A stretch of DNA of 32,000 bases from Alkalilimnicola ehrlichii MLHE-1 (GCF_000014785.1 NC_008340.1:1290001-1322000); one strand, 5' to 3'. Shown: positions 22,090 through 32,000, numbered from the stretch's first letter. Numbers and translations are program-made. The notes: generated by a model not told the origin, from the sequence alone.

Positions 22090-24324
<2,235 letters not shown>

Positions 24325-24632: not shown

Positions 24633-24636
<4 letters not shown>
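24395..24636 (-). pseudogene. hsdM: type I R-M methyltransferase hsdM remnant (internal deletions plus frameshift)
   Basis: [21 protein letters not shown] (HsdM N-terminus) is joined directly to [24 protein letters not shown]|LPEPD, and after a frameshift to [25 protein letters not shown] (HsdM C-terminal tail). About 80 codons remain where roughly 500 would be expected. The ATG overlaps the stop of the upstream gene (ATGA). Confidence 0.7.
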
Positions 24637-25634
<998 letters not shown>

Positions 25635-25822: not shown

Positions 25823-28204
25823 TTACAGCGTCGTGACCAGCTCTCCGATTACTCTAAGTTCGGTCACGGCGTCCTCGGTTAGCTCAATATCCCGATAGCC
25901 AAAATGGCGACTCTCAGGCTTCAGCACAATCCGTGTGTGATACCACGACCCGTCATCTCCAACCGCTTTCTCGCTGTGATACCGTTTGATTGTGTAACGC
26001 TCCCCGGTATCATCATCCTGGATATCACGGTGTGCTACCAGAACAATCTTGCCTTCCCGAGTGCCGGCCGGATTCGCTCTAAAAACACACCATGAGCCGT
26101 TCGGGATGCGCTTATTCATGGACTCGCCAATAACGCGGGTAACAAAAAAATCTGGTTCGGGTCGGAGCCAATCAGGAAGTTGCATCCAGTCACAATCTTC
26201 TACTGATTGAGCATCGCTGAACTCGCCGGCAGCCACTGCTAGATCGAATACCGGAACAGCATTTTCAAAAGGCCTCACGTCCTCAGTGGCCAGAAGTGGG
26301 TAGGGAAGGGCTTCATAGTTAGCCGCCCGCATTACGGTATTGTTAGCGGGGGTTTCGATCTGTTTGCGGAACCAGGCGTTGGTCTCTGGGTCCGTGCAGA
26401 ATACAAAACAGCCCTTCATTCCGCGAGTCAGCAGCGTACGATAAGTGTTCTTGATGATTTCGTCGGCTAGGCGCTGAGCGTCTTCCGGGTCTTGTTTGTA
26501 GAGTTTTCGAATACCCCGAACCGATCGGTCCATTGAAGATCGTTTGCGCCCGTCAGTGATGATCTCACCGTCGCGGACTACTAAATCTGGACCTATGATG
26601 ACACCCACATAGTCAAGCTCCAATCCTTGAATGGTGTGAATACAGCCGATCTGTTCGACGGAGTGCTCGGCCAGGGCCCACAGGCTGCCGTCCTTAGTTA
26701 GGTTCCACTGGGCAGAGAAGTCATGTTCAGGAATTTCTATGTCCATGGCCGTTGGGTCCTTTTTGCTCTTCCAGTCCCAACAGTAACCTGCCACCATGCG
26801 AGCACGGTTATTGGCATTGTGCGCCAGCACCTCCCGCCGTAAATCCTGTGGTGATTCCATTACGCGGACGTCAAAATCAATAGATTCAACGTCTGCATTA
26901 GCGGTGTCTCGAATGGCCAAAAGGTGATCGACAAAAGCGAGATAGCCATCCGAGCCACCACAGCGGAACTGTGACGCCAGCCTGAGCTCTGTCACTTCGG
27001 CCCCGAGAGTCTGGGCCCAGTGGCGGATTTCGTTTCGGGTGCCAATATCCTTGAGGGTTACTCGCTGTGCCTCGTCCACAAAAAAGACGGACAGCCGGGC
27101 GGCATGCATAATCTCCTTTATCTGGTTCTCGCCTTGGTTTCCGTACAGGCCGCTCTTCTCGTTCAAACGGTGTGCCTCATCTACTAGCAATACGTCGAAG
27201 CAATCGGGCTCACTCTCCATAAAAGAGCCTGAACCTCGGAACAAGTTGCTGATGCGGCTCTTTTTGAAAGAACCAGTTAGCTTGGCCTCATATACCGCCC
27301 TAGGTGCCGCGTTTCTCGACACGTACTGGGAGACAAGGTCTCGGTCTGTCAGTTTGGCGAGGAGGTTGATAGCCAATACCGATTTTCCAGTGCCGGGTCC
27401 ACCTTCGATAATTAGCACCTGTTTTTCCCCATGCTGGGCTCTGTGGGCTAACTCCAGCGCCTTCTCGAACGCGACCTTCTGGTCATCGATCATGACGAAG
27501 GCGTCGTTGCCCTTCAGCATCGACAGGACCGCGTCCGCTAGACTGCGAGATGGCCGGATACGTCCATTCTCTATGCGGTACATGATGTCGTGCCGATCAC
27601 CATAGCGGACATGGCGCTTCAGAAAATCGGCAAGGCGCTCTGCATCACGGGAAATAAAGACCGGTGCGCGGGCAATATGCGACGCATACACCGGGTCATT
27701 CACCGCTCTGTCGTCATCAAGGTTGTGCAGATATGCGCAGGGCGCGAGGTGGATCGAGTCGGCACGAACAGTTTCGTTGTAGTCCTCAATCAGCGCCGCA
27801 TATGTCCAGGCTTGGTAGGAGGGGTGGCTGGTCTCCCGCCAAGCGCCGCCGAGTGGGGTGCAGATAATGCCGTCTTTACCCAGCGCCTCAGCCTGCTGCC
27901 ACTGTTTTAGCTCCACGATGACAGCAGTCTCTTCACGTCTGTCGCTCTGGCCGGTCAGGATGAAATCGATACGCTTGCTGGTCAGGGGGATGTGGTACTC
28001 GAGTGACACGCCGGCATCATCCGGGATTTCCGGGTCGACTAATAGGTTGGCCATGAATTGCAGCGAATTGCGCCAGGAGTCCACCTCCTTGGCAGCGACT
28101 GATCGTGAAAGACGCCGACGAAACTCCAGCAATATCTTTTCGTGGATCCGGTTGAGGCGTATATCCTCGACGAAGGCAGCCTTGTTCGCAGCATATACAA
28201 TCAT
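25823..28204 (-). CDS. three-domain protein: PD-(D/E)xK nuclease-like N-terminus, DUF2075/Schlafen-like P-loop NTPase, and LexA/UmuD-type S24 peptidase C-terminus
   Basis: 793 aa.
- Nuclease-like motif RID80F..VIVE98LK100QW.
- Walker A GGPGTGK274S at nt 27380-27403, and Walker B LLVDEAHRL.
- Helicase-like C-terminal motifs IHTIQGLELDYVGVI and TLLTRGMKGCFVF.
- S24 module from about aa 645, with VAA|GEF, GES695M and TIK740RY. Confidence 0.85.
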   Translation of the reverse strand: MIVYAANKAAFVEDIRLNRIHEKILLEFRRRLSRSVAAKEVDSWRNSLQFMANLLVDPEIPDDAGVSLEYHIPLTSKRIDFILTGQSDRREETAVIVELKQWQQAEALGKDGIICTPLGGAWRETSHPSYQAWTYAALIEDYNETVRADSIHLAPCAYLHNLDDDRAVNDPVYASHIARAPVFISRDAERLADFLKRHVRYGDRHDIMYRIENGRIRPSRSLADAVLSMLKGNDAFVMIDDQKVAFEKALELAHRAQHGEKQVLIIEGGPGTGKSVLAINLLAKLTDRDLVSQYVSRNAAPRAVYEAKLTGSFKKSRISNLFRGSGSFMESEPDCFDVLLVDEAHRLNEKSGLYGNQGENQIKEIMHAARLSVFFVDEAQRVTLKDIGTRNEIRHWAQTLGAEVTELRLASQFRCGGSDGYLAFVDHLLAIRDTANADVESIDFDVRVMESPQDLRREVLAHNANNRARMVAGYCWDWKSKKDPTAMDIEIPEHDFSAQWNLTKDGSLWALAEHSVEQIGCIHTIQGLELDYVGVIIGPDLVVRDGEIITDGRKRSSMDRSVRGIRKLYKQDPEDAQRLADEIIKNTYRTLLTRGMKGCFVFCTDPETNAWFRKQIETPANNTVMRAANYEALPYPLLATEDVRPFENAVPVFDLAVAAGEFSDAQSVEDCDWMQLPDWLRPEPDFFVTRVIGESMNKRIPNGSWCVFRANPAGTREGKIVLVAHRDIQDDDTGERYTIKRYHSEKAVGDDGSWYHTRIVLKPESRHFGYRDIELTEDAVTELRVIGELVTTL

Positions 28205-28572
28205 GAGGCAGAATCATCCTCGCGTTGATACCCAGTGTATTTGAGTGATGATCCCCACACCTTTTCGGCGGGATAGCGCTTTTCGTTGAGCGCCATCTTC
28301 TCCTCTACGGCTCTAGGAATATCTATACCCAGCTTATCTGCCAGCCTGAGCAGGTAAATCTGCACATCCGCGATTTCGTGCGCCGCTGCCTGATGCTGAT
28401 CCGGCGTGAGCTCGTGAGACTGCGCTTCTGTCATCCACTGAAATAGGTCTTGGAGCTCCCCCACCTCTCCTGACAGCGCCATCGTCAGGTTCTTGGGGGA
28501 GTGGAATTGGTCCCAGTTACGAGCCTCAGCAAAGGCGCGCGCTTTTTCGCGTAGCGTTTGGAAATCCGACAT
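28201..28572 (-). CDS. MazG-like all-alpha NTP pyrophosphohydrolase (DCTPP1-like)
   Basis: 123 aa. It has F.EARNWDQFHSPKNL..ALSGEVGELQDLFQW and HEIADVQIYLLRLADKLGIDI, which are EExxE/ExxD metal-binding motifs. The stop overlaps the start of the 793-aa gene (ATGA at 28201-28204). Confidence 0.85.
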   Translation of the reverse strand: MSDFQTLREKARAFAEARNWDQFHSPKNLTMALSGEVGELQDLFQWMTEAQSHELTPDQHQAAAHEIADVQIYLLRLADKLGIDIPRAVEEKMALNEKRYPAEKVWGSSLKYTGYQREDDSAS

Positions 28573-28596
28573 GGCAGCTTCCCATGGTTGATTTGG

Positions 28597-28806
28597 TTAA
28601 GGCAGTGGCTCACCCGTCAGGGTGAAGTAGAGCCGCTGGATGGTGCCGATGGGGACTTGACCGTCGGTGGGGTACTCGCGCACCGCCACGCCCCGGGTGG
28701 CCTGCGGGTTCAGTGCGGCCAGGCTTTGCACCGTCCAGCCGGAGGCGCGGAGCTGTTCATCGATGCGGTCGCGGGCGCGTTGTTCCGGGTTCTGGTTATT
28801 GGGCAT
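28597..28806 (-). pseudogene. hsdR: N-terminal stub of a type I restriction subunit hsdR
   Basis: PEQRARDRIDEQLRASGWTVQSLAALNPQATRGVAVREYPTDGQ matches the HsdR N-terminal domain pattern (..IDxQLxxAGWxVQ....GVAVREFP). Homology is lost after about 50 codons and a stop follows at codon 70. Confidence 0.6.
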
Positions 28807-29302
28807 TGTCGCGATAGCTGGCGTGCACCGGCACGGCGGCCTTCAACGTTTGCGCCACCACACAGTACCGTTCGGTGAGTTCCAGGAGCGTATCCAGTTG
28901 CTCCGCTGACGCGGGGGATTGCAGCGCGATCTCCAGGCGGATCTCCTTGAAACCCACCGGTGCCTCCTTCGAGATGCCCAGCGTGCCACGGAAATCCAGG
29001 TCCCCCTCAGCACGTAATGTGCACTCTTCGATGGGGATTTCCAAGGACGTTGCCACCGCCGATAAGGTGACACCGGCACACGCCACCAGCGCCTCCAGCA
29101 GCATGTCCCCGGAACAGGCCTGGGTGCCGGGACCACCGGTTGCGGGGTGCAGCCCGGCCTCGACCAGCGCCTTGCCGGTGGCCAGACTGCACGAGACCCC
29201 TTCGCCGACACGGCCCTCCGCCTTCAGCGTGACGAGGGCCGATTCCGGGGATTGACGGTATTGCTCCTTGAGCGGTGCCTGGATGGACCGGAGATCAGTC
29301 AT
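28796..29302 (-). CDS. OsmC family peroxiredoxin-like protein
   Basis: The internal ATG at 29302 (MTDLRSIQ..) has an AAGAGG ribosome-binding site. Two conserved Cys contexts are present (ACSGDMLLEAL and ERYCVV). Confidence 0.8.
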   Translation of the reverse strand: MTDLRSIQAPLKEQYRQSPESALVTLKAEGRVGEGVSCSLATGKALVEAGLHPATGGPGTQACSGDMLLEALVACAGVTLSAVATSLEIPIEECTLRAEGDLDFRGTLGISKEAPVGFKEIRLEIALQSPASAEQLDTLLELTERYCVVAQTLKAAVPVHASYRDNAQ

Positions 29303-29454: not shown

Positions 29455-29750
29455 CTAACTGACACTTTGAACGGCCCTGCATTTGGGATACCCCGAGCAA
29501 CCCCAGAATTGATTGCCTGCATTCGCGCCCCGCTTGGCCGTGCGCAAGACCATGTCGTTACCACACCTGGGACACTTCCGCTCTGCCGTCGGGTCGGACC
29601 GAGACCGGAGCTGTTGGACGTGCTGGCGATGCGTCTTCCGTGTTGGCTCCAATCGGCCAGACTTGATCTGCGACAGGAGGTCTTGTACCTCGGACTCACT
29701 CAGCACCGGCTCAGTGAATGACTTGATGTACGTGATGTAGGCGCCGCCCC
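29455..29750 (-). pseudogene. NERD-domain protein, 3' half (linker plus topoisomerase-type C4 zinc finger), separated from its 5' half by an IS
   Basis: ..GGAYITYIKSFTEPVLSESEVQDLLSQIKSGRL..CPRCGNDMVLRTAKRGANAGNQFWGCSGYPKC. The frame continues upstream of the nominal GTG start, right up to the IS end. Confidence 0.8.
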
Positions 29751-31682
29751 CCCAAGTTCCACAGTTAACGCCGTAACTATCTGATCCTGTTAGGCCCGGA
29801 ATTCGAAAAATGCCACAACACGGTCAACGCGGGGCCTTCGGAACCTCCACGCCGGCGGCTTCGAAAAGGTCCAGCTGTTCCTGGTTGGGTCGGGTAAGCC
29901 CTTCGTAGGCGCGGCTACCCACACGCACCGTGTGCCGCTGGATTTGCCGCAGGCTCCGTAGCAGCTTTTCCGGTGAGCAGGCGCTGCCGGCGGCCTTGAG
30001 GCGCCCGCGCAAGACCCGGTAGAGCACCAGCGCGAGGAAGCAAATCATCGCGTGCGCCCGAATGCGCTCCGGCAGCCGGTGGTAGACCGGCGCGATTTCA
30101 ATCTCGCTCTTGAGTACCCGGAATCCACGCTCGATATCGGCCAGGGAGCGGTAACGCTCTACCACAGCTTCCGCCCCCATGTCGGTGAGGCTGGTAACCA
30201 GCAGTAGCTTGCCGTCCAGACGTTCGGCAGCCGCCCAGGCGGGCTCATCGATGGTGTAGCTGAATTGCGGCGAGCCGAGATCGGCCTTGATGATCGCGCT
30301 CATGCGCCTCTCCAGCACGGCCTTGTGGAAGCGCTGGTAGGCACTACGGTCGGTGGAACGCCGCCCACGACCGGGCTGGCCAGCATCCTGATTATCGAGT
30401 CGCTCGGCGAGTTGGGCACCAAGGGCGTCAAGCTCTTCGATGGTCTGCCGACGCTGCGCGCTCTGCTCGGCGGCCCGTTCGGCATTGTGGGCCACCACCA
30501 GGCGTCGGCCCTGCCAGGTGGTTTCGGTCACCACGTCCTGACTAGGCTCGGTGACGGCGGTTTCCAGTTGCGTATGCAGAGACTCCATCACCTCGGTGAA
30601 GTCCCCGTAACGCCGGGCGGGTACAGCCAGAATGTAGTCGACCGTCAGCCCCTGCTCGACGCCCAGTGCCTCCAGAGTGTCGATGTTATCGAAGCTGAGC
30701 AGGCCGCGGTCGGCGACCACTACCACGCGGGCGAGCGCGAAACGCTCCAGCAGACGTTCAATCATTGGGGCCAGGGTGCGCGTCTCGGCGACATTCCCCT
30801 CGAAGACCTCGTGGGCGATCGGCAGGCCTTCGGCAGTCTGGACCACCCCCAGCGCAAATTGGCGGCCAATACCGGCGGTGTCCTTGCTGAGGCCATGCTG
30901 ACGGATATCGTCTTCCATCGCATGGGTGCCGTGGATGCGTACCGTGGTGAGATCGTAAAAGATGACGCTGAGATCCTGGTCAAGCAGCGGCCGCAACTGG
31001 CCGGCTACCGCACGCTCCACGGCCTCCTTGTGGTCCTCCAACGCATCCATGGCACGCAGGAGTTGCTCGTGGTGCACGGTCGAGGCATCGAGCCCGGGCA
31101 TGCTGGTGCTCTCGCGCAACCACTCCAGCGTGCCGCGTTTGCTGCTCGGCTCAGCGAGGCGGTTGAAAACCATGGCTCGGATGAGTGCCTCGGCATCGAA
31201 CTGTCGTCGGGAGGAGCGCAGAGCCCGTTTCAAGGCCCCATCCAGGCCTAACTCCTGCCAGAGCTGATGGAGGGTCCACACATCGCCAAAGGCGCGGGCG
31301 GTCTCGAACTGAGGCGCTTCAGGCAATGATTCAGGACGCCCCACCGCCCGTTGGAGTCCCTTGATGAGCGGCTCCAGGTCAGCTGCCTCAAGCTGATCAA
31401 GGCGACCCAGGCTGGCTACCACACGCTGTTTAACCTTGCCGTTGGCGTCTCGGTAGCCCTCGACCAACTGCAAATAGCGGCGCGGGCCGGACTTTGTGAT
31501 GCGCGTGTACATGGCATGACATTATGCCACCCAGAGACCTGCAATCAATAGCCAGCTTAGGATTCGCGTGACACAACAGCGGCTTGGCTGGTTCTGGCCG
31601 CGCAGATCAATCGCTTCAAGCACTTACGTCCCACAACCCCTTGGGTTTTCGGTCTGAAGTGTGGAACTTGGGCGCCCCAGGT
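29751..31682 (-). mobile_element. IS1634/IS4-family insertion sequence (about 1.93 kb)
   Basis: Perfect 13-bp terminal inverted repeats: cccaagttccaca (29751-29763) and tgtggaacttggg (31670-31682). They are flanked by a 6-bp direct duplication, CGCCCC (29745-29750 and 31683-31688). The element holds a single transposase ORF. Confidence 0.85.
29824..31512 (-). CDS. IS1634/IS4 family DDE transposase
   Basis: 562 aa. MYTRITKSGPRRYLQLVEGYRD.NGKVKQRVVASLGRLD.. is a typical IS1634-group N-terminus. VVVADRGL and YRSLADIERGFRVLKSEIEIAPVYH are present. Confidence 0.9.
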   Translation of the reverse strand: MYTRITKSGPRRYLQLVEGYRDANGKVKQRVVASLGRLDQLEAADLEPLIKGLQRAVGRPESLPEAPQFETARAFGDVWTLHQLWQELGLDGALKRALRSSRRQFDAEALIRAMVFNRLAEPSSKRGTLEWLRESTSMPGLDASTVHHEQLLRAMDALEDHKEAVERAVAGQLRPLLDQDLSVIFYDLTTVRIHGTHAMEDDIRQHGLSKDTAGIGRQFALGVVQTAEGLPIAHEVFEGNVAETRTLAPMIERLLERFALARVVVVADRGLLSFDNIDTLEALGVEQGLTVDYILAVPARRYGDFTEVMESLHTQLETAVTEPSQDVVTETTWQGRRLVVAHNAERAAEQSAQRRQTIEELDALGAQLAERLDNQDAGQPGRGRRSTDRSAYQRFHKAVLERRMSAIIKADLGSPQFSYTIDEPAWAAAERLDGKLLLVTSLTDMGAEAVVERYRSLADIERGFRVLKSEIEIAPVYHRLPERIRAHAMICFLALVLYRVLRGRLKAAGSACSPEKLLRSLRQIQRHTVRVGSRAYEGLTRPNQEQLDLFEAAGVEVPKAPR

Positions 31683-32000
31683 CACGCTGGCGGGCATGGG
31701 CGTCTTGAACCTACTTGCACCCGTGAACACCACCACGGAATGGATGTGCTCTGGCGGGACACCAAGCGCTGACTCCAGTGCCTTCACGTGCTTGTAATTC
31801 TGGCGAAGGGGGTTCTGGAACTTGAAGGTTTTCTTGTAGATCTTCTGCGTCCACTGAGCCTGACGCTCGCCGCCGAAAATCCAGCCCTTCATGTTCTTTG
31901 TCTCTACCACGAAGATGCCGTAGCGAGACACGAAGATATGGTCGATCTGCGTGGTTCCGTCCGGTGTGGGTAGCGTGACGTTGTGCAGTCGGTGGTATTT
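31683..32000 (-). pseudogene. NERD-domain protein, 5' part (runs off the window edge), interrupted by the IS
   Basis: ..HNVTLPTPDGTTQIDHIFVSRYGIFVVETKNMKGWIFG..WTQKIYKKTFKFQNPLRQNYKHVKALE..VVVFTG...FKTPMPASVTWG. The frame then reads into the IS inverted repeat. Confidence 0.8.

What the first reader, a model, noticed from the sequence alone, without database searches (positions are those of the whole stretch)
25826..26272. Complete LexA-type self-cleavage apparatus on the C-terminus of an NTPase/nuclease
Every hallmark of a LexA/UmuD autoprotease can be read in the last 150 or so residues.
- A cleavage-site loop: VPVFDLAVAA|GEF (A659-G660, nt 26225-26236). Compare LexA ..GRVAA|GEP.
- The nucleophile motif GES695M (nt 26120-26122).
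- The general-base context YTIK740RY.
- The terminal beta-strands LKPES..F..RDIEL...LRVIGELV.

In LexA, UmuD and phage repressors, this module cleaves itself when it contacts RecA-ssDNA filaments. Here there is no N-terminal HTH. Instead there is an enzymatic body of about 640 aa.

This suggests a proteolytic licensing switch, in which cleavage releases or activates the nuclease/NTPase during DNA damage or phage replication. Eukaryotic Schlafen-family members with a related helicase domain respond to replication stress. That is a loose conceptual parallel, not evidence.
Basis: partly seen in the sequence, partly recalled or inferred. Interest (0 to 1): 0.8.

Follow-up and report, generated by a model that had tools for sequence, protein, structure and literature searches.

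The report
LexA-type self-cleaving tail on defence helicase-nuclease
A bacterial helicase-nuclease of a kind known to fight phages ends in a complete, conserved copy of the self-cutting domain that LexA uses to sense DNA damage, which suggests that DNA-damage signals switch this enzyme directly at the protein level.

Summary
ORF 25823-28204 (-), 793 aa, from Alkalilimnicola ehrlichii, ends in a genuine S24 (LexA/UmuD/lambda cI) domain at residues ~645-793.

- **Domain identity:** Pfam S24 scores above its cutoff. A family profile hits only LexA, UmuD and cI in the PDB. The 28 best Foldseek hits to the AF2 model (pLDDT 87.6) are those same proteins.
- **Conservation:** the cleavage site x-A-[A/C]|G, Ser695 and Lys740 are kept in 76-77 of 77 species genomes.
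- **Independent fusion:** a Clostridia clade carries a different, LexA-like S24 with the same features. A single third type also exists.
- **Enzyme body:** a PD-(D/E)xK-like motif domain plus a DUF2075/Schlafen-group-3 SF1 helicase, the same architecture as the anti-phage enzyme Nhi.
- **Partner gene:** a DCTPP1-like MazG gene overlaps the ORF start and is adjacent in 62 of 76 loci.
- **S24 is optional:** most close relatives lack it, so it is an add-on regulatory module.

A self-cleavage switch is well supported. I lean slightly towards a RecA*-triggered shut-off with degron exposure, a "restriction-alleviation"-like brake (0.4), over licensing (0.3). I found no paper describing this fusion. 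I rate it a new variant of known kinds, of moderately high interest.

The parts
25823..28204 (-). Whole gene: 793-aa nuclease-like / SF1 helicase / S24 fusion protein (stop codon included)
   Evidence: ORF list. It is 100% identical to an Alkalilimnicola ehrlichii protein named 'DNA/RNA helicase domain-containing protein'. The AF2 full-length model has pLDDT 75, and Foldseek returns RecD2, SLFN11, Dna2, Dda and Upf1.
27560..28204 (-). N-terminal domain (res 1-215) with a PD-(D/E)xK-type motif: E69, D80, E98-L-K100, Q131
   Evidence: E69, D80, E98, K100, H127, P128 and Q131 are invariant in 12 sequences down to 25% identity (alignment view). There is no Pfam or PDB sequence match, so nuclease activity is inferred from the motif and from the analogy with Nhi.
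26390..27424 (-). SF1 helicase/ATPase core (res 261-605), DUF2075 = Schlafen group 3 helicase domain. Walker A GGPGTGKS is at 27380-27403 and DEAH at res 342-345.
   Evidence: Pfam PF09848 at 2e-109. Walker A and DEAH are invariant in 41 homologues.
26261..26353 (-). Flexible linker (res ~618-648) between the helicase and S24
   Evidence: pLDDT is below 50 at residues 618-628 in the full-length model. Length and sequence vary across homologues.
25826..26272 (-). S24 (LexA/UmuD/cI-type) self-cleavage domain, res 645-793
26225..26230 (-). Predicted scissile bond Ala659|Gly660, within VPVFDLAVAA|GEF
   Evidence: A658 and G660 are invariant in 61 sequences. The pattern x-A-[A/C]|G-x-[FYW] holds in 76 of 77 genomes, with P1 = Ala in 67 and Cys in 9, mirroring LexA (A-G) and UmuD (C-G).
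26120..26122 (-). Predicted nucleophile Ser695 (G-E-S-M)
   Evidence: Invariant in 61 aligned sequences. G-x-S-M is present in 76 of 77 genomes.
25985..25987 (-). Predicted general base Lys740 (Y-T-I-K-R-Y)
   Evidence: Invariant in 61 aligned sequences. Present in 76 of 77 genomes.
28201..28572 (-). Operon partner: 123-aa MazG-like NTP pyrophosphohydrolase, a homologue of dCTP pyrophosphatase 1 (DCTPP1/RS21-C6). Its stop overlaps the start of the fusion gene (ATGA).
   Evidence: Pfam MazG-like at 3e-12. PDB 2a3q/6sqw at E 8e-26. The overlap is read directly from the sequence. The gene is adjacent on the same strand in 62 of 76 genome loci that have room and in 7 of 7 loci inspected individually, including S24-less and IS-split copies.

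Best explanation
The gene encodes an Nhi-like DNA-targeting enzyme. It consists of a PD-(D/E)xK-motif domain, a DUF2075 SF1 helicase, a flexible ~30-residue linker and a catalytically competent LexA-type S24 domain. With a DCTPP1-like MazG pyrophosphatase it forms a two-gene module on an acquired defence island.

**Shown:**
- The S24 fold.
- The Ser695/Lys740 dyad.
- An Ala659|Gly660 site at LexA-like spacing.
- Near-universal conservation of these elements.
- S24 is an optional add-on, acquired at least twice independently, in clades with different S24 lineages.

**Inferred:**
- Ser695/Lys740 cut the A659-G660 bond when the domain engages RecA-ssDNA filaments (RecA*), as in LexA, UmuD and cI.
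- This severs the 659-residue enzyme from the 134-residue S24 core, which probably dimerises.

**My preferred consequence (inferred, least certain):** the cut is an OFF/turnover switch. It exposes a hydrophobic-Ala-Ala C-terminus (…AVAA-COOH) on the enzyme body. This resembles the latent ClpXP degron that LexA-like proteins carry next to their cleavage site. The helicase-nuclease would therefore be removed while the host chromosome is full of RecA-coated ssDNA. That makes it a built-in autoimmunity brake, analogous to restriction alleviation of type I enzymes.

My confidence that this is a genuine self-cleaving regulatory switch is ~0.75. My confidence in the full statement, including the OFF direction, is ~0.4.
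For: **S24 identity and intact catalytic elements**
- Domain identity rests.
- A658, G660, G693, S695, M696 and K740 are invariant in 61 sequences down to 28% identity.
- The elements are kept in 76-77 of 77 species genomes spanning many phyla.
- The one exception, L068, lost the site, the GESM motif and the Lys together. Their joint loss fits the three being functionally linked.

**Independent fusion of different S24 lineages at the same position**
- A Clostridia clade of 12 clusters carries GEIAAG/GDSM/ATLK, all invariant.
- The profile of this window's S24 subtype does not detect that clade even at E<=10. Its nearest relatives by body sequence are S24-less.
- A single protein, P0143, represents a third type (MAAAG/GESM/CKRY).
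- Repeated capture argues for a plug-and-play mechanism that does not depend on the body. Degron exposure or loss of a dimerisation module both qualify.

**The body works without S24**
- Most close relatives are 620-650 aa and match only residues 1-616.
- These occur on plasmids and in archaea.

**Non-cleavable variants keep intact bodies**
- P0100 has TTAD in place of the site and K->R. L068 is the other case.
- Both keep intact bodies, 81-84% identical to their nearest relative. Their S24 domains are about 20 points more diverged, against a family mean of -7 +/- 7.

**The exposed C-terminus**
- P3-P1 is hydrophobic-Ala-Ala in 67 of 77 genomes.
- It is also hydrophobic-Ala-Ala in both other S24 lineages (IAA, AAA).

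**Literature**
- LexA-like proteins carry embedded degrons directly adjacent to the cleavage site. These drive degradation of the N-terminal part after autocleavage (PMC5742171; PMC3159453).
- ClpXP-dependent restriction alleviation protects the host from a helicase-nuclease during DNA-damage stress (PMC4231737).

**Defence context**
- The neighbours are a RhuM-Fic protein (PADLOC PDC-S23) and a NERD fragment.
- GC content drops across the region, suggesting acquired DNA.
- Other loci sit next to Mrr, GmrSD, HNH or toxin-antitoxin genes.
- Nhi, which has the same core architecture, is an experimentally shown anti-phage nuclease-helicase (10.1101/776245; 10.1101/2022.05.11.491447).
Against: - No biochemical data exist. 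Cleavage, its RecA dependence and its effect on activity are all inferred.
- S24-less relatives are presumably active without any S24 dimerisation. Cleavage alone would therefore leave an active enzyme, and the OFF model rests entirely on degradation of the cleaved body, which is untested.
- 9 of 77 genomes have Cys at P1, giving an -AAC C-terminus that is not a known ClpX motif.
- The Ala-Ala is also present in HTH repressors of the same S24 subtype. It may simply be inherited rather than selected here.
- Shutting off a defence enzyme when RecA* appears could be counter-productive, because phage replication also generates RecA*.
- In known nuclease-helicase defences such as Hachiman and AbpAB, DNA damage is an activating cue (PMC12278908, PMC10732053).
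- The two non-cleavable variants are anecdotes. Selection on their bodies was not measured.
- The nuclease assignment of the N-terminal domain rests on a motif only.
- Anti-phage function of this family has not been shown. PADLOC models match only parts of the protein, the helicase region or its P-loop stretch.
Confidence: 0.4

Rival explanations
1. Licensing/activation switch. The uncleaved protein is held inactive, for example by S24-mediated dimerisation or occlusion. RecA* formed on phage or damaged DNA triggers self-cleavage and releases an active helicase-nuclease, which degrades phage DNA and possibly host DNA (abortive infection).
For: - The conserved self-cleavage apparatus is the same evidence as for the best explanation.
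- The released 1-659 body would look like the S24-less relatives, which are presumably active.
- There is precedent for activation by S24 cleavage: UmuD to UmuD' (established knowledge).
- There is precedent for DNA damage or ssDNA activating nuclease-helicase defences: Hachiman (PMC12278908) and AbpAB (PMC10732053).
- Nhi is proposed to act on phage replication intermediates, and a phage SSB modulates it (10.1101/776245).
Against: - This model requires S24 to inhibit the body. At least two unrelated S24 lineages were fused independently, with a single third-type sequence as well. Evolving a specific inhibitory interface repeatedly is less parsimonious than a generic mechanism.
- Two lineages with dead cleavage elements keep intact bodies. 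Under this model those proteins would be permanently off.
- No SOS box or other sign of damage-coupled expression lies upstream.
- Any spontaneous SOS event would unleash a nuclease.
Confidence: 0.3
2. Self-cleavage is real but not RecA*-driven. It could be constitutive maturation, or it could respond to another cue such as pH or stress, a phage protein, or nucleic-acid binding by the helicase body that changes the conformation of the cleavage loop.
For: [quoted passage not shown]
- The S24 domain here belongs to a divergent cI-like subtype with an extra beta-hairpin insertion (…SEK…DG.W.H..I.L.P), and is only 15-25% identical to LexA/UmuD/cI structures.
- The residues just after the site (661-669) have low model confidence.
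- S24 evolves faster than the body.
Against: - The same S24 subtype occurs in ordinary HTH_3/HTH_31 + S24 repressors, and the Clostridia clade uses a canonical LexA-like domain. For both of these classes RecA* is the usual trigger (established knowledge).
- All S24-bearing loci found are bacterial. The archaeal plasmid copies, whose hosts have no RecA, lack S24. The sample is small.
Confidence: 0.13
3. RecA*-filament targeting ('recruit and release'). The S24 domain mainly docks the enzyme into the groove of RecA-ssDNA filaments. This delivers the helicase-nuclease to recombination or replication intermediates, and cleavage merely releases or resets it.
For: - LexA, UmuD and cI C-terminal domains bind in the RecA filament groove (PDB 8gms, 8gmt, 8gmu, 8trg, all among the structural hits).
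- A long flexible linker suits a tethered enzyme.
- The generic mechanism is compatible with repeated independent fusion.
Against: - There is no direct evidence.
- Strict conservation of the scissile bond and dyad shows that catalysis itself is selected, not just binding.
- RecA-contacting residues could not be assessed, because no model coordinates or complex prediction were available.
Confidence: 0.1
4. The S24 domain is only a structural or dimerisation module and is not cleaved in vivo, or it acts in trans on another substrate.
For: - S24 C-terminal domains dimerise in LexA and cI (established; PMC3159453).
- Nhi works as a dimer (10.1101/776245).
- A few variants survive without cleavage elements.
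Against: A pure scaffold would not keep Ser, Lys and the internal Ala/Cys-Gly site invariant across 76 of 77 genomes and in at least two independently acquired lineages (with P0143).
Confidence: 0.05

Closest known systems
LexA / UmuD / lambda cI (MEROPS family S24, Pfam PF00717)
   Same: - Same fold. The top 28 Foldseek hits are these proteins.
- Ser-Lys dyad in G-x-S-M and …K-R-Y contexts.
- Ala(Cys)-Gly scissile bond about 35 residues before the Ser.
- Hydrophobic-Ala-Ala precedes the cut, as in LexA.
   Different: - The domain is at the C-terminus of a ~640-aa enzyme rather than of an HTH or wHTH DNA-binding domain (or, in UmuD, a short N-terminal tail).
- It has an extra beta-hairpin insertion between the Ser and Lys regions.
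- Only 15-25% sequence identity to the solved structures.
- The regulated function would be an enzymatic activity, not operator binding.
Nhi and 'Nhi-like' anti-phage nuclease-helicases (Bari et al., 10.1101/776245; Millman et al., 10.1101/2022.05.11.491447)
   Same: - Single polypeptide with an N-terminal PD-(D/E)xK-type region and a DUF2075 SF1B-like helicase.
- Structural neighbours are Dda, Upf1 and Dna2 (the Nhi paper reports the same).
- A variable C-terminal accessory domain.
- Location in defence islands.
   Different: - Only a remote sequence relationship. The PADLOC Nhi model matches just residues 256-414 at 1e-9.
- Nhi's C-terminal domain is glyoxalase/bleomycin-resistance-like, not S24.
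- This family has a conserved DCTPP1-like partner gene.
- Anti-phage activity has not been tested for this family.
Restriction alleviation of type I R-M enzymes (ClpXP degradation of HsdR; PMC4231737)
   Same: It is a proteolytic brake that removes a helicase-nuclease when the host's own DNA becomes a potential target during DNA-damage stress. This is what the OFF model proposes here.
   Different: - In EcoKI the protease acts in trans on translocating HsdR, and no self-cleavage is involved.
- Here the trigger would be an in-cis S24 autoprotease.
- This is a mechanistic analogy only, not homology.
DNA-damage-responsive regulators and sensors of defence systems (CBASS CapH/CapP and BrxR/CapW-type WYL regulators, from my own knowledge; Hachiman PMC12278908; AbpAB PMC10732053)
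   Same: They couple immunity to DNA damage or ssDNA signals.
   Different: - Those act through transcription (a repressor cleaved by a metallopeptidase, or WYL-domain ssDNA binding), or through a helicase that senses DNA damage.
- None uses an S24 domain fused to the effector itself.
Eukaryotic Schlafen group 3 proteins (SLFN5/11/13/14)
   Same: The helicase domain belongs to the same Pfam family, PF09848. SLFN11 and SLFN14 are among the structural hits.
   Different: There is no Schlafen N-terminal RNase (AlbA_2) core. The N-terminal domain is different, and the S24 tail is absent from Schlafens.

Membership tests
S24 self-cleaving peptidases (LexA/UmuD/cI; Pfam PF00717) | Sequence matches the family model above the curated threshold | tested here: met
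   30.9 bits against a 23.3 cutoff, E 2.3e-7, profile positions 1-115 of 116. Homologues score up to 2e-12, and the Clostridia type 2.4e-23.
S24 self-cleaving peptidases (LexA/UmuD/cI; Pfam PF00717) | LexA C-terminal-domain fold (beta-rich catalytic core) | tested here: met
   The AF2 model has pLDDT 87.6 and pTM 0.83. The top 28 Foldseek PDB hits are all LexA/cI/UmuD, with TM up to 0.78.
S24 self-cleaving peptidases (LexA/UmuD/cI; Pfam PF00717) | Ser nucleophile and Lys general base | tested here: met
   S695 (GESM) and K740 (TIKRY) are present. Both are invariant in 61 sequences. In 77 genomes, Lys is kept in 76 and Ser in all 77.
S24 self-cleaving peptidases (LexA/UmuD/cI; Pfam PF00717) | Internal Ala-Gly or Cys-Gly scissile bond on a strand-loop N-terminal to the core | tested here: met
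   A659|G660 lies 35 residues before the Ser. The pattern x-A-[A/C]|G is present in 76 of 77 genomes.
S24 self-cleaving peptidases (LexA/UmuD/cI; Pfam PF00717) | Actual autoproteolysis, stimulated by RecA-ssDNA-ATP filaments or high pH | not testable with these tools
   This needs biochemistry. No model coordinates or complex prediction were available to check the geometry.
LexA/cI-type transcriptional repressors | N-terminal HTH or winged-HTH DNA-binding domain joined to S24 | tested here: not met
   No significant HTH hit (best HTH_31 E 0.085, far below its cutoff). The 640 residues upstream are a motif-bearing N-terminal domain plus a DUF2075 helicase. The protein is therefore not a repressor of this kind.
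Nhi / Nhi-like nuclease-helicase defence proteins | DUF2075 SF1 helicase with intact ATPase motifs | tested here: met
   PF09848 at 2e-109. Walker A and DEAH are invariant. Foldseek returns RecD2, Dda, Dna2 and Upf1.
Nhi / Nhi-like nuclease-helicase defence proteins | N-terminal PD-(D/E)xK nuclease domain | tested here: inconclusive
   The E69…D80…E98-x-K100…Q131 motif is invariant. No Pfam or PDB sequence match was found. The domain was not modelled or searched on its own.
Nhi / Nhi-like nuclease-helicase defence proteins | Full-length match to the family model | tested here: not met
   The PADLOC Nhi model matches only residues 256-414 (1.1e-9). AbiO matches 240-433 and PDC-S41 matches 356-609. 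The protein shares the architecture but is not a member of the modelled families.
Nhi / Nhi-like nuclease-helicase defence proteins | Protection against phage | not testable with these tools
   Only defence-island context is available.
Schlafen proteins | N-terminal Schlafen (AlbA_2) RNase core | tested here: not met
   No such Pfam hit. Only the group-3 helicase domain is shared.
DCTPP1 / RS21-C6 all-alpha NTP pyrophosphohydrolases (the partner gene) | Sequence homology and the E-x-x-E … E-x-x-D metal-binding motifs | tested here: met
   PDB 2a3q/6sqw (dCTP pyrophosphatase 1) at E 8e-26 over residues 7-117. EVGE and EIAD are present in the translation. Substrate specificity was not tested.

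The most novel reading that the evidence does not exclude
S24 autoprotease domains are portable RecA*-sensing switches that immune DNA-targeting enzymes have captured repeatedly. Here different S24 lineages were fused onto one helicase-nuclease family, twice as independent clades (with a single third-type sequence), and the same S24 subtype is also joined to DUF3427, TnsA-like and DpnI_C-containing fragments. If so, the SOS signal is wired directly, at the protein level and without transcription, to the activity or lifetime of a widespread uncharacterised two-gene defence module: a DCTPP1-like dNTP pyrophosphatase plus an Nhi-like helicase-nuclease.
Probability: 0.5. Interest if true: 0.8.

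Novelty: new variant of a known kind. Interest (0 to 1): 0.65.

Why it matters
How DNA-targeting defence enzymes sense infection and avoid attacking their own chromosome is a central open question in bacterial immunity.

All characterised S24 modules that I know of regulate either DNA-binding repressors or the polymerase V subunit UmuD. A LexA-type autoprotease fused directly to a helicase-nuclease would be a post-translational link between RecA-ssDNA filaments and an immune effector, with no transcription involved.

The family is large. At least 594 species-level genomes encode a relative, and 77 of the 80 best loci carry S24, spread across many phyla. The S24 tail was acquired independently at least twice. 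The predicted switch has three single-residue handles (S695A, K740A, G660D), so the ON-versus-OFF question is directly testable.

The conserved DCTPP1-like partner also hints at an uncharacterised link between nucleotide-pool sanitation or depletion and DNA degradation.

Tried and rejected
- **SOS box.** CTGT-N8-ACAG with up to 1 mismatch gave 10 matches against 9.6 expected, and none lies upstream of the operon. There is no evidence of LexA-controlled transcription.
- **Single-sequence phmmer against the PDB.** The whole protein and the C-terminal domain gave only insignificant hits. A family profile was needed.
- **N-terminal domain.** Pfam at E<=10 and a 12-sequence profile against the PDB gave nothing meaningful. 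The nuclease call stays motif-based.
- **'This S24 subtype is fused to full HsdR restriction subunits'.** Rejected. P0349 and P0384 are small standalone proteins that carry only the last 30-60 profile positions of T1RH-like_C. The DUF3427, TnsA_N and DpnI_C fusions sit on ~1-kb contigs, so their full architectures are unknown.
- **Phage or IMG/VR carriage of the S24 fusion.** Only S24-less relatives were found. The scan of viral contigs with the S24 alignment failed because no conserved stretch was usable.
- **Literature.** Ten searches combining DUF2075, Schlafen, Nhi, S24, LexA, MazG and defence terms found no paper describing this fusion. The library lacks most subscription journals, so absence is not proof.
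- **PADLOC.** Only partial helicase-region hits, so this is not a catalogued system.
- **Promoter and terminator scan of the operon.** Counts were at chance level.
- **Terminal inverted repeats of the neighbouring IS.** Not detected.
- **Model geometry.** The Ser-Lys distance and docking of the cleavage site could not be checked, because no model coordinates are exposed.


Full report
**1. What is in the sequence**

The finding lies at the 3' end of ORF 25823-28204 on the minus strand. The ORF encodes 793 aa. It is 100% identical to an Alkalilimnicola ehrlichii protein annotated only as 'DNA/RNA helicase domain-containing protein'.

| Coordinates | Translation | Feature |
|---|---|---|
| 26225-26236 | VAAG | A659\|G660 bond |
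| 26117-26128 | GESM | S695 |
| 25979-25996 | YTIKRY | K740 |

Pfam finds three things in the protein:
- SLFN-g3_helicase/DUF2075 at residues 261-605 (2e-109).
- Generic P-loop families overlapping that region.
- Peptidase_S24 at residues 651-789, covering the whole profile, at 30.9 bits against a gathering cutoff of 23.3 (E 2.3e-7).

**2. Is it really an S24 domain?**

Single-sequence searches against the PDB were uninformative. Three other tests were clear.

- I built a profile from 29 C-terminal domains of homologues (A4). It hit 21 PDB sequences at E<=1, and every one is LexA, UmuD or lambda cI (best 1.5e-4).
- An AlphaFold2 model of residues 635-793, built on a 61-sequence alignment, reached pLDDT 87.6 and pTM 0.83. 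Only the six residues just after the predicted cut have low confidence.
- Foldseek against the PDB returned LexA, cI or UmuD for all 28 best hits (3k2z_A E 1.9e-5; UmuD 8gmt_A TMt 0.78). S26 signal peptidases, from the same clan, come next.

The spacing from Gly660 to Ser695 is 35 residues. In E. coli LexA the spacing from G85 to S119 is 34 (LexA residue numbers as in PMC3159453).

**3. Conservation**

The top 120 homologues are all about 795 aa, and most also carry a precomputed S24 annotation. I checked three sets.

- *41 homologues at 56-85% identity.* S695 is invariant, and A658, A659, G660 and K740 are at least 90% conserved. The one outlier, P0100, has lost both the site (TTAD) and the Lys (K->R).
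- *After adding 50%-cluster representatives, with C-terminal identity down to 28%.* A658, G660, G693, S695, M696 and K740 are invariant in 61 sequences.
- *One genome per species.* At least 594 genomes encode a relative. Of the best 80 loci, 77 carry the S24 tail. They come from Gamma-, Beta- and Zetaproteobacteria, Desulfobacterota, Verrucomicrobiota, Kiritimatiellia, Bacteroidota, Nitrospira, Elusimicrobia, Saccharibacteria and others.

Within those 77 loci:

| Element | Kept in |
|---|---|
| Site x-A-[A/C]\|G-x-[F/Y/W] | 76 of 77 (P1 = Ala in 67, Cys in 9) |
| Ser | 77 of 77 |
| G-x-S-M | 76 of 77 |
| Lys | 76 of 77 |

Ala and Cys at P1 are exactly the LexA (A-G) and UmuD (C-G) alternatives. 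The single exception, L068, lost the site, the GESM motif and the Lys together.

**4. S24 is an add-on, acquired more than once**

In the exhaustive representative search, most close relatives are 620-650 aa and match only residues 1-616. The nuclease-helicase body is therefore a self-sufficient unit. S24-less copies also occur on plasmids, including archaeal ones. The few phage or IMG/VR copies are likewise S24-less.

A Clostridia clade provides an independent fusion:
- It comprises 12 clusters at 57-88% identity, from several sources including NCBI MAGs.
- It has a canonical LexA-like tail (…PLVGEIAAG…GDSM…ATLK…; Pfam 2.4e-23 for P0127). The site, Ser and Lys are invariant across the clade.
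- phmmer does not align this tail with the window's. The A4 profile does not detect it even at E<=10.
- The clade's nearest relatives by body sequence are S24-less.

A single protein, P0143, carries a third S24 type (MAAAG/GESM/CKRY). Independent capture of different S24 lineages at the same position, each keeping the full catalytic set, is the strongest evidence that self-cleavage is functionally coupled to this enzyme.

The window's S24 subtype is 34-41% identical to that of ordinary HTH_3/HTH_31 + S24 repressors. It also appears joined to DUF3427, TnsA-like, DpnI_C, Zn-ribbon and short T1RH-like_C segments. Most of those sit on ~1-kb contigs. The T1RH-like_C cases proved to be small standalone proteins, not HsdR fusions.

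**5. The rest of the system**

*N-terminal domain.* The first 215 residues carry an invariant E69…D80…E98-x-K100…Q131 pattern, typical of PD-(D/E)xK nucleases. The domain has no Pfam or PDB sequence match, so 'nuclease' remains an inference.

*Helicase.* The full-length model (pLDDT 75) resembles RecD2, Dda, Dna2, Upf1 and SLFN11/14. A low-confidence linker of about 30 residues precedes S24.

*Relation to Nhi.* This architecture equals that of Nhi, an experimentally shown anti-phage nuclease-helicase that dimerises and is modulated by a phage SSB (10.1101/776245). It also equals 'Nhi-like' (10.1101/2022.05.11.491447). However, PADLOC's Nhi, AbiO and PDC-S41 models match only parts of the protein (the P-loop stretch or the helicase region).

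*Partner gene.* The upstream gene 28201-28572 overlaps the start codon (ATGA). It is a clear homologue of dCTP pyrophosphatase 1/RS21-C6 (E 8e-26). A MazG-like gene is adjacent on the same strand in 62 of 76 genome loci that have room: 56 upstream and 6 downstream. It is also adjacent in 7 of 7 loci inspected individually, including an S24-less relative. The partnership therefore belongs to the body, not to S24.

*Genomic setting.* The setting suggests an acquired defence island:
- GC content drops to 0.53-0.59, against about 0.65 elsewhere.
- The neighbours include a RhuM-Fic/DOC protein (PADLOC PDC-S23, 1.8e-120), an IS and a NERD fragment.
- Other loci sit beside Mrr, GmrSD, HNH and toxin-antitoxin genes.

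**6. Mechanism**

*Shown:* a complete, conserved S24 apparatus on an enzyme body.

*Inferred from the family's established behaviour:* Ser695/Lys740 cleave A659|G660, most likely when the domain engages RecA-ssDNA filaments. This separates the 659-residue enzyme from the 134-residue S24 core.

*The direction of the effect cannot be read from sequence.* I favour a shut-off or turnover switch at 0.4, for four reasons.
- The body needs no activation, because S24-less orthologues exist.
- Repeated independent capture favours a generic mechanism that does not depend on the body.
- LexA-like proteins carry latent degrons directly adjacent to their cleavage sites. These cause ClpXP/Lon destruction of the N-terminal product (PMC5742171, PMC3159453). 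Here the cut would expose hydrophobic-Ala-Ala in 67 of 77 genomes, and in both other S24 lineages as well.
- Two lineages with dead S24 elements keep intact bodies while their S24 decays.

The physiological logic parallels restriction alleviation, in which ClpXP removes the helicase-nuclease HsdR during DNA-damage stress (PMC4231737).

UmuD is activated by cleavage. DNA damage activates Hachiman and AbpAB (PMC12278908, PMC10732053). The released body would also resemble the active S24-less relatives.

Lesser rivals are RecA-independent cleavage (precedent IrvR, PMC7101444), RecA-filament targeting, and a purely structural role.

**7. Novelty**

The domain combination is visible in precomputed Pfam annotations, and some JGI names read 'DUF2075 family protein/SOS-response transcriptional repressor LexA'. 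Even so, ten full-text searches found no paper that describes or interprets it. The library is incomplete, so this is not proof of absence.

I classify it as a new variant of known kinds: an S24 switch and an Nhi-like nuclease-helicase. It is widespread, repeatedly evolved and directly testable. My interest score is 0.65.

Noticed in passing
window 28201-28572 (-): The operon partner is a homologue of eukaryotic dCTP pyrophosphatase 1 (DCTPP1/RS21-C6; PDB 2a3q/6sqw, E 8e-26), with a 4-nt ATGA overlap onto the helicase gene. It is adjacent in 62 of 76 related genome loci, and also next to S24-less relatives. I found no description of a DCTPP1-like gene paired with a DUF2075 nuclease-helicase.
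   Followed up: partly
window 24633-25634 (-): The downstream neighbour is a 333-aa RhuM-family plus Fic/DOC protein. It matches the PADLOC candidate defence family PDC-S23 over its full length (1.8e-120).
   Followed up: no
window 29455-31931 (-): A DDE_Tnp_1 (IS4-type) transposase gene at 29824-31512 sits between a NERD-domain fragment (31557-31931, matching only profile positions 45-111) and an 83-aa Zn_ribbon_Top1 ORF (29455-29706). This looks like a NERD-Zn-ribbon gene split by the IS. No terminal inverted repeats were detected.
   Followed up: partly
window 26000-29000: GC content falls to 0.53-0.59, against about 0.65 in the rest of the window. The low-GC block lies next to the monomeric isocitrate dehydrogenase gene (22090-24324, +), which suggests horizontally acquired DNA.
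   Followed up: no
window 28597-28806 (-): A 69-aa ORF lies directly upstream of the MazG-like gene (MPNNQNPEQRARDRIDEQLRASGW…). It has no Pfam hit. From memory it resembles the N-terminus of restriction-enzyme R subunits and may be a gene remnant. This is unverified.
   Followed up: no
proteins P0341, P0347, P0371, P0295, P0349, P0384, P0328, P0329: The same S24 subtype (34-55% identical, Ser/Lys kept) occurs in ordinary HTH_3/HTH_31 repressors. It is also joined to DUF3427, a TnsA-like endonuclease N-domain, DpnI_C, Zn_ribbon_Top1 and short T1RH-like_C segments. Most are on ~1-kb contigs, so their full architectures are unknown. P0371 (DpnI_C) lacks the Ala-Gly site.
   Followed up: partly
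L008 403-5636: In a 4.16-Mb genome an IS21 element (transposase plus IstB) has split a MazG-like/DUF2075/S24 module into a 624-aa body and a 211-aa S24 ORF. The island also holds Mrr, HNH and GmrSD genes.
   Followed up: no
protein P0177: A 1068-aa relative has the same body (residues 1-632) fused to a PIF1/RecD-type second helicase instead of S24. P0137 (740 aa) and P0209 (776 aa) have C-terminal extensions with no Pfam match. The C-terminus of this family is therefore a hotspot for accessory domains.
   Followed up: no
loci L063/L041, L031/L076, P0082/L065: The S24 domain diverges faster than the body (mean -7 identity points). In some nearest-neighbour pairs the body is ~69-74% identical but S24 only 41-52%, with catalytic motifs intact. 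This could mean module swapping or accelerated evolution, perhaps adaptation to a new host's RecA.
   Followed up: no
L001 8425-8730: In Microbulbifer spongiae a 101-aa ORF matching only T1RH-like_C lies immediately downstream of the DUF2075-S24 gene, and an Mrr-family gene lies upstream. The same T1RH-like_C segment is fused to this S24 subtype in P0349 and P0384.
   Followed up: no
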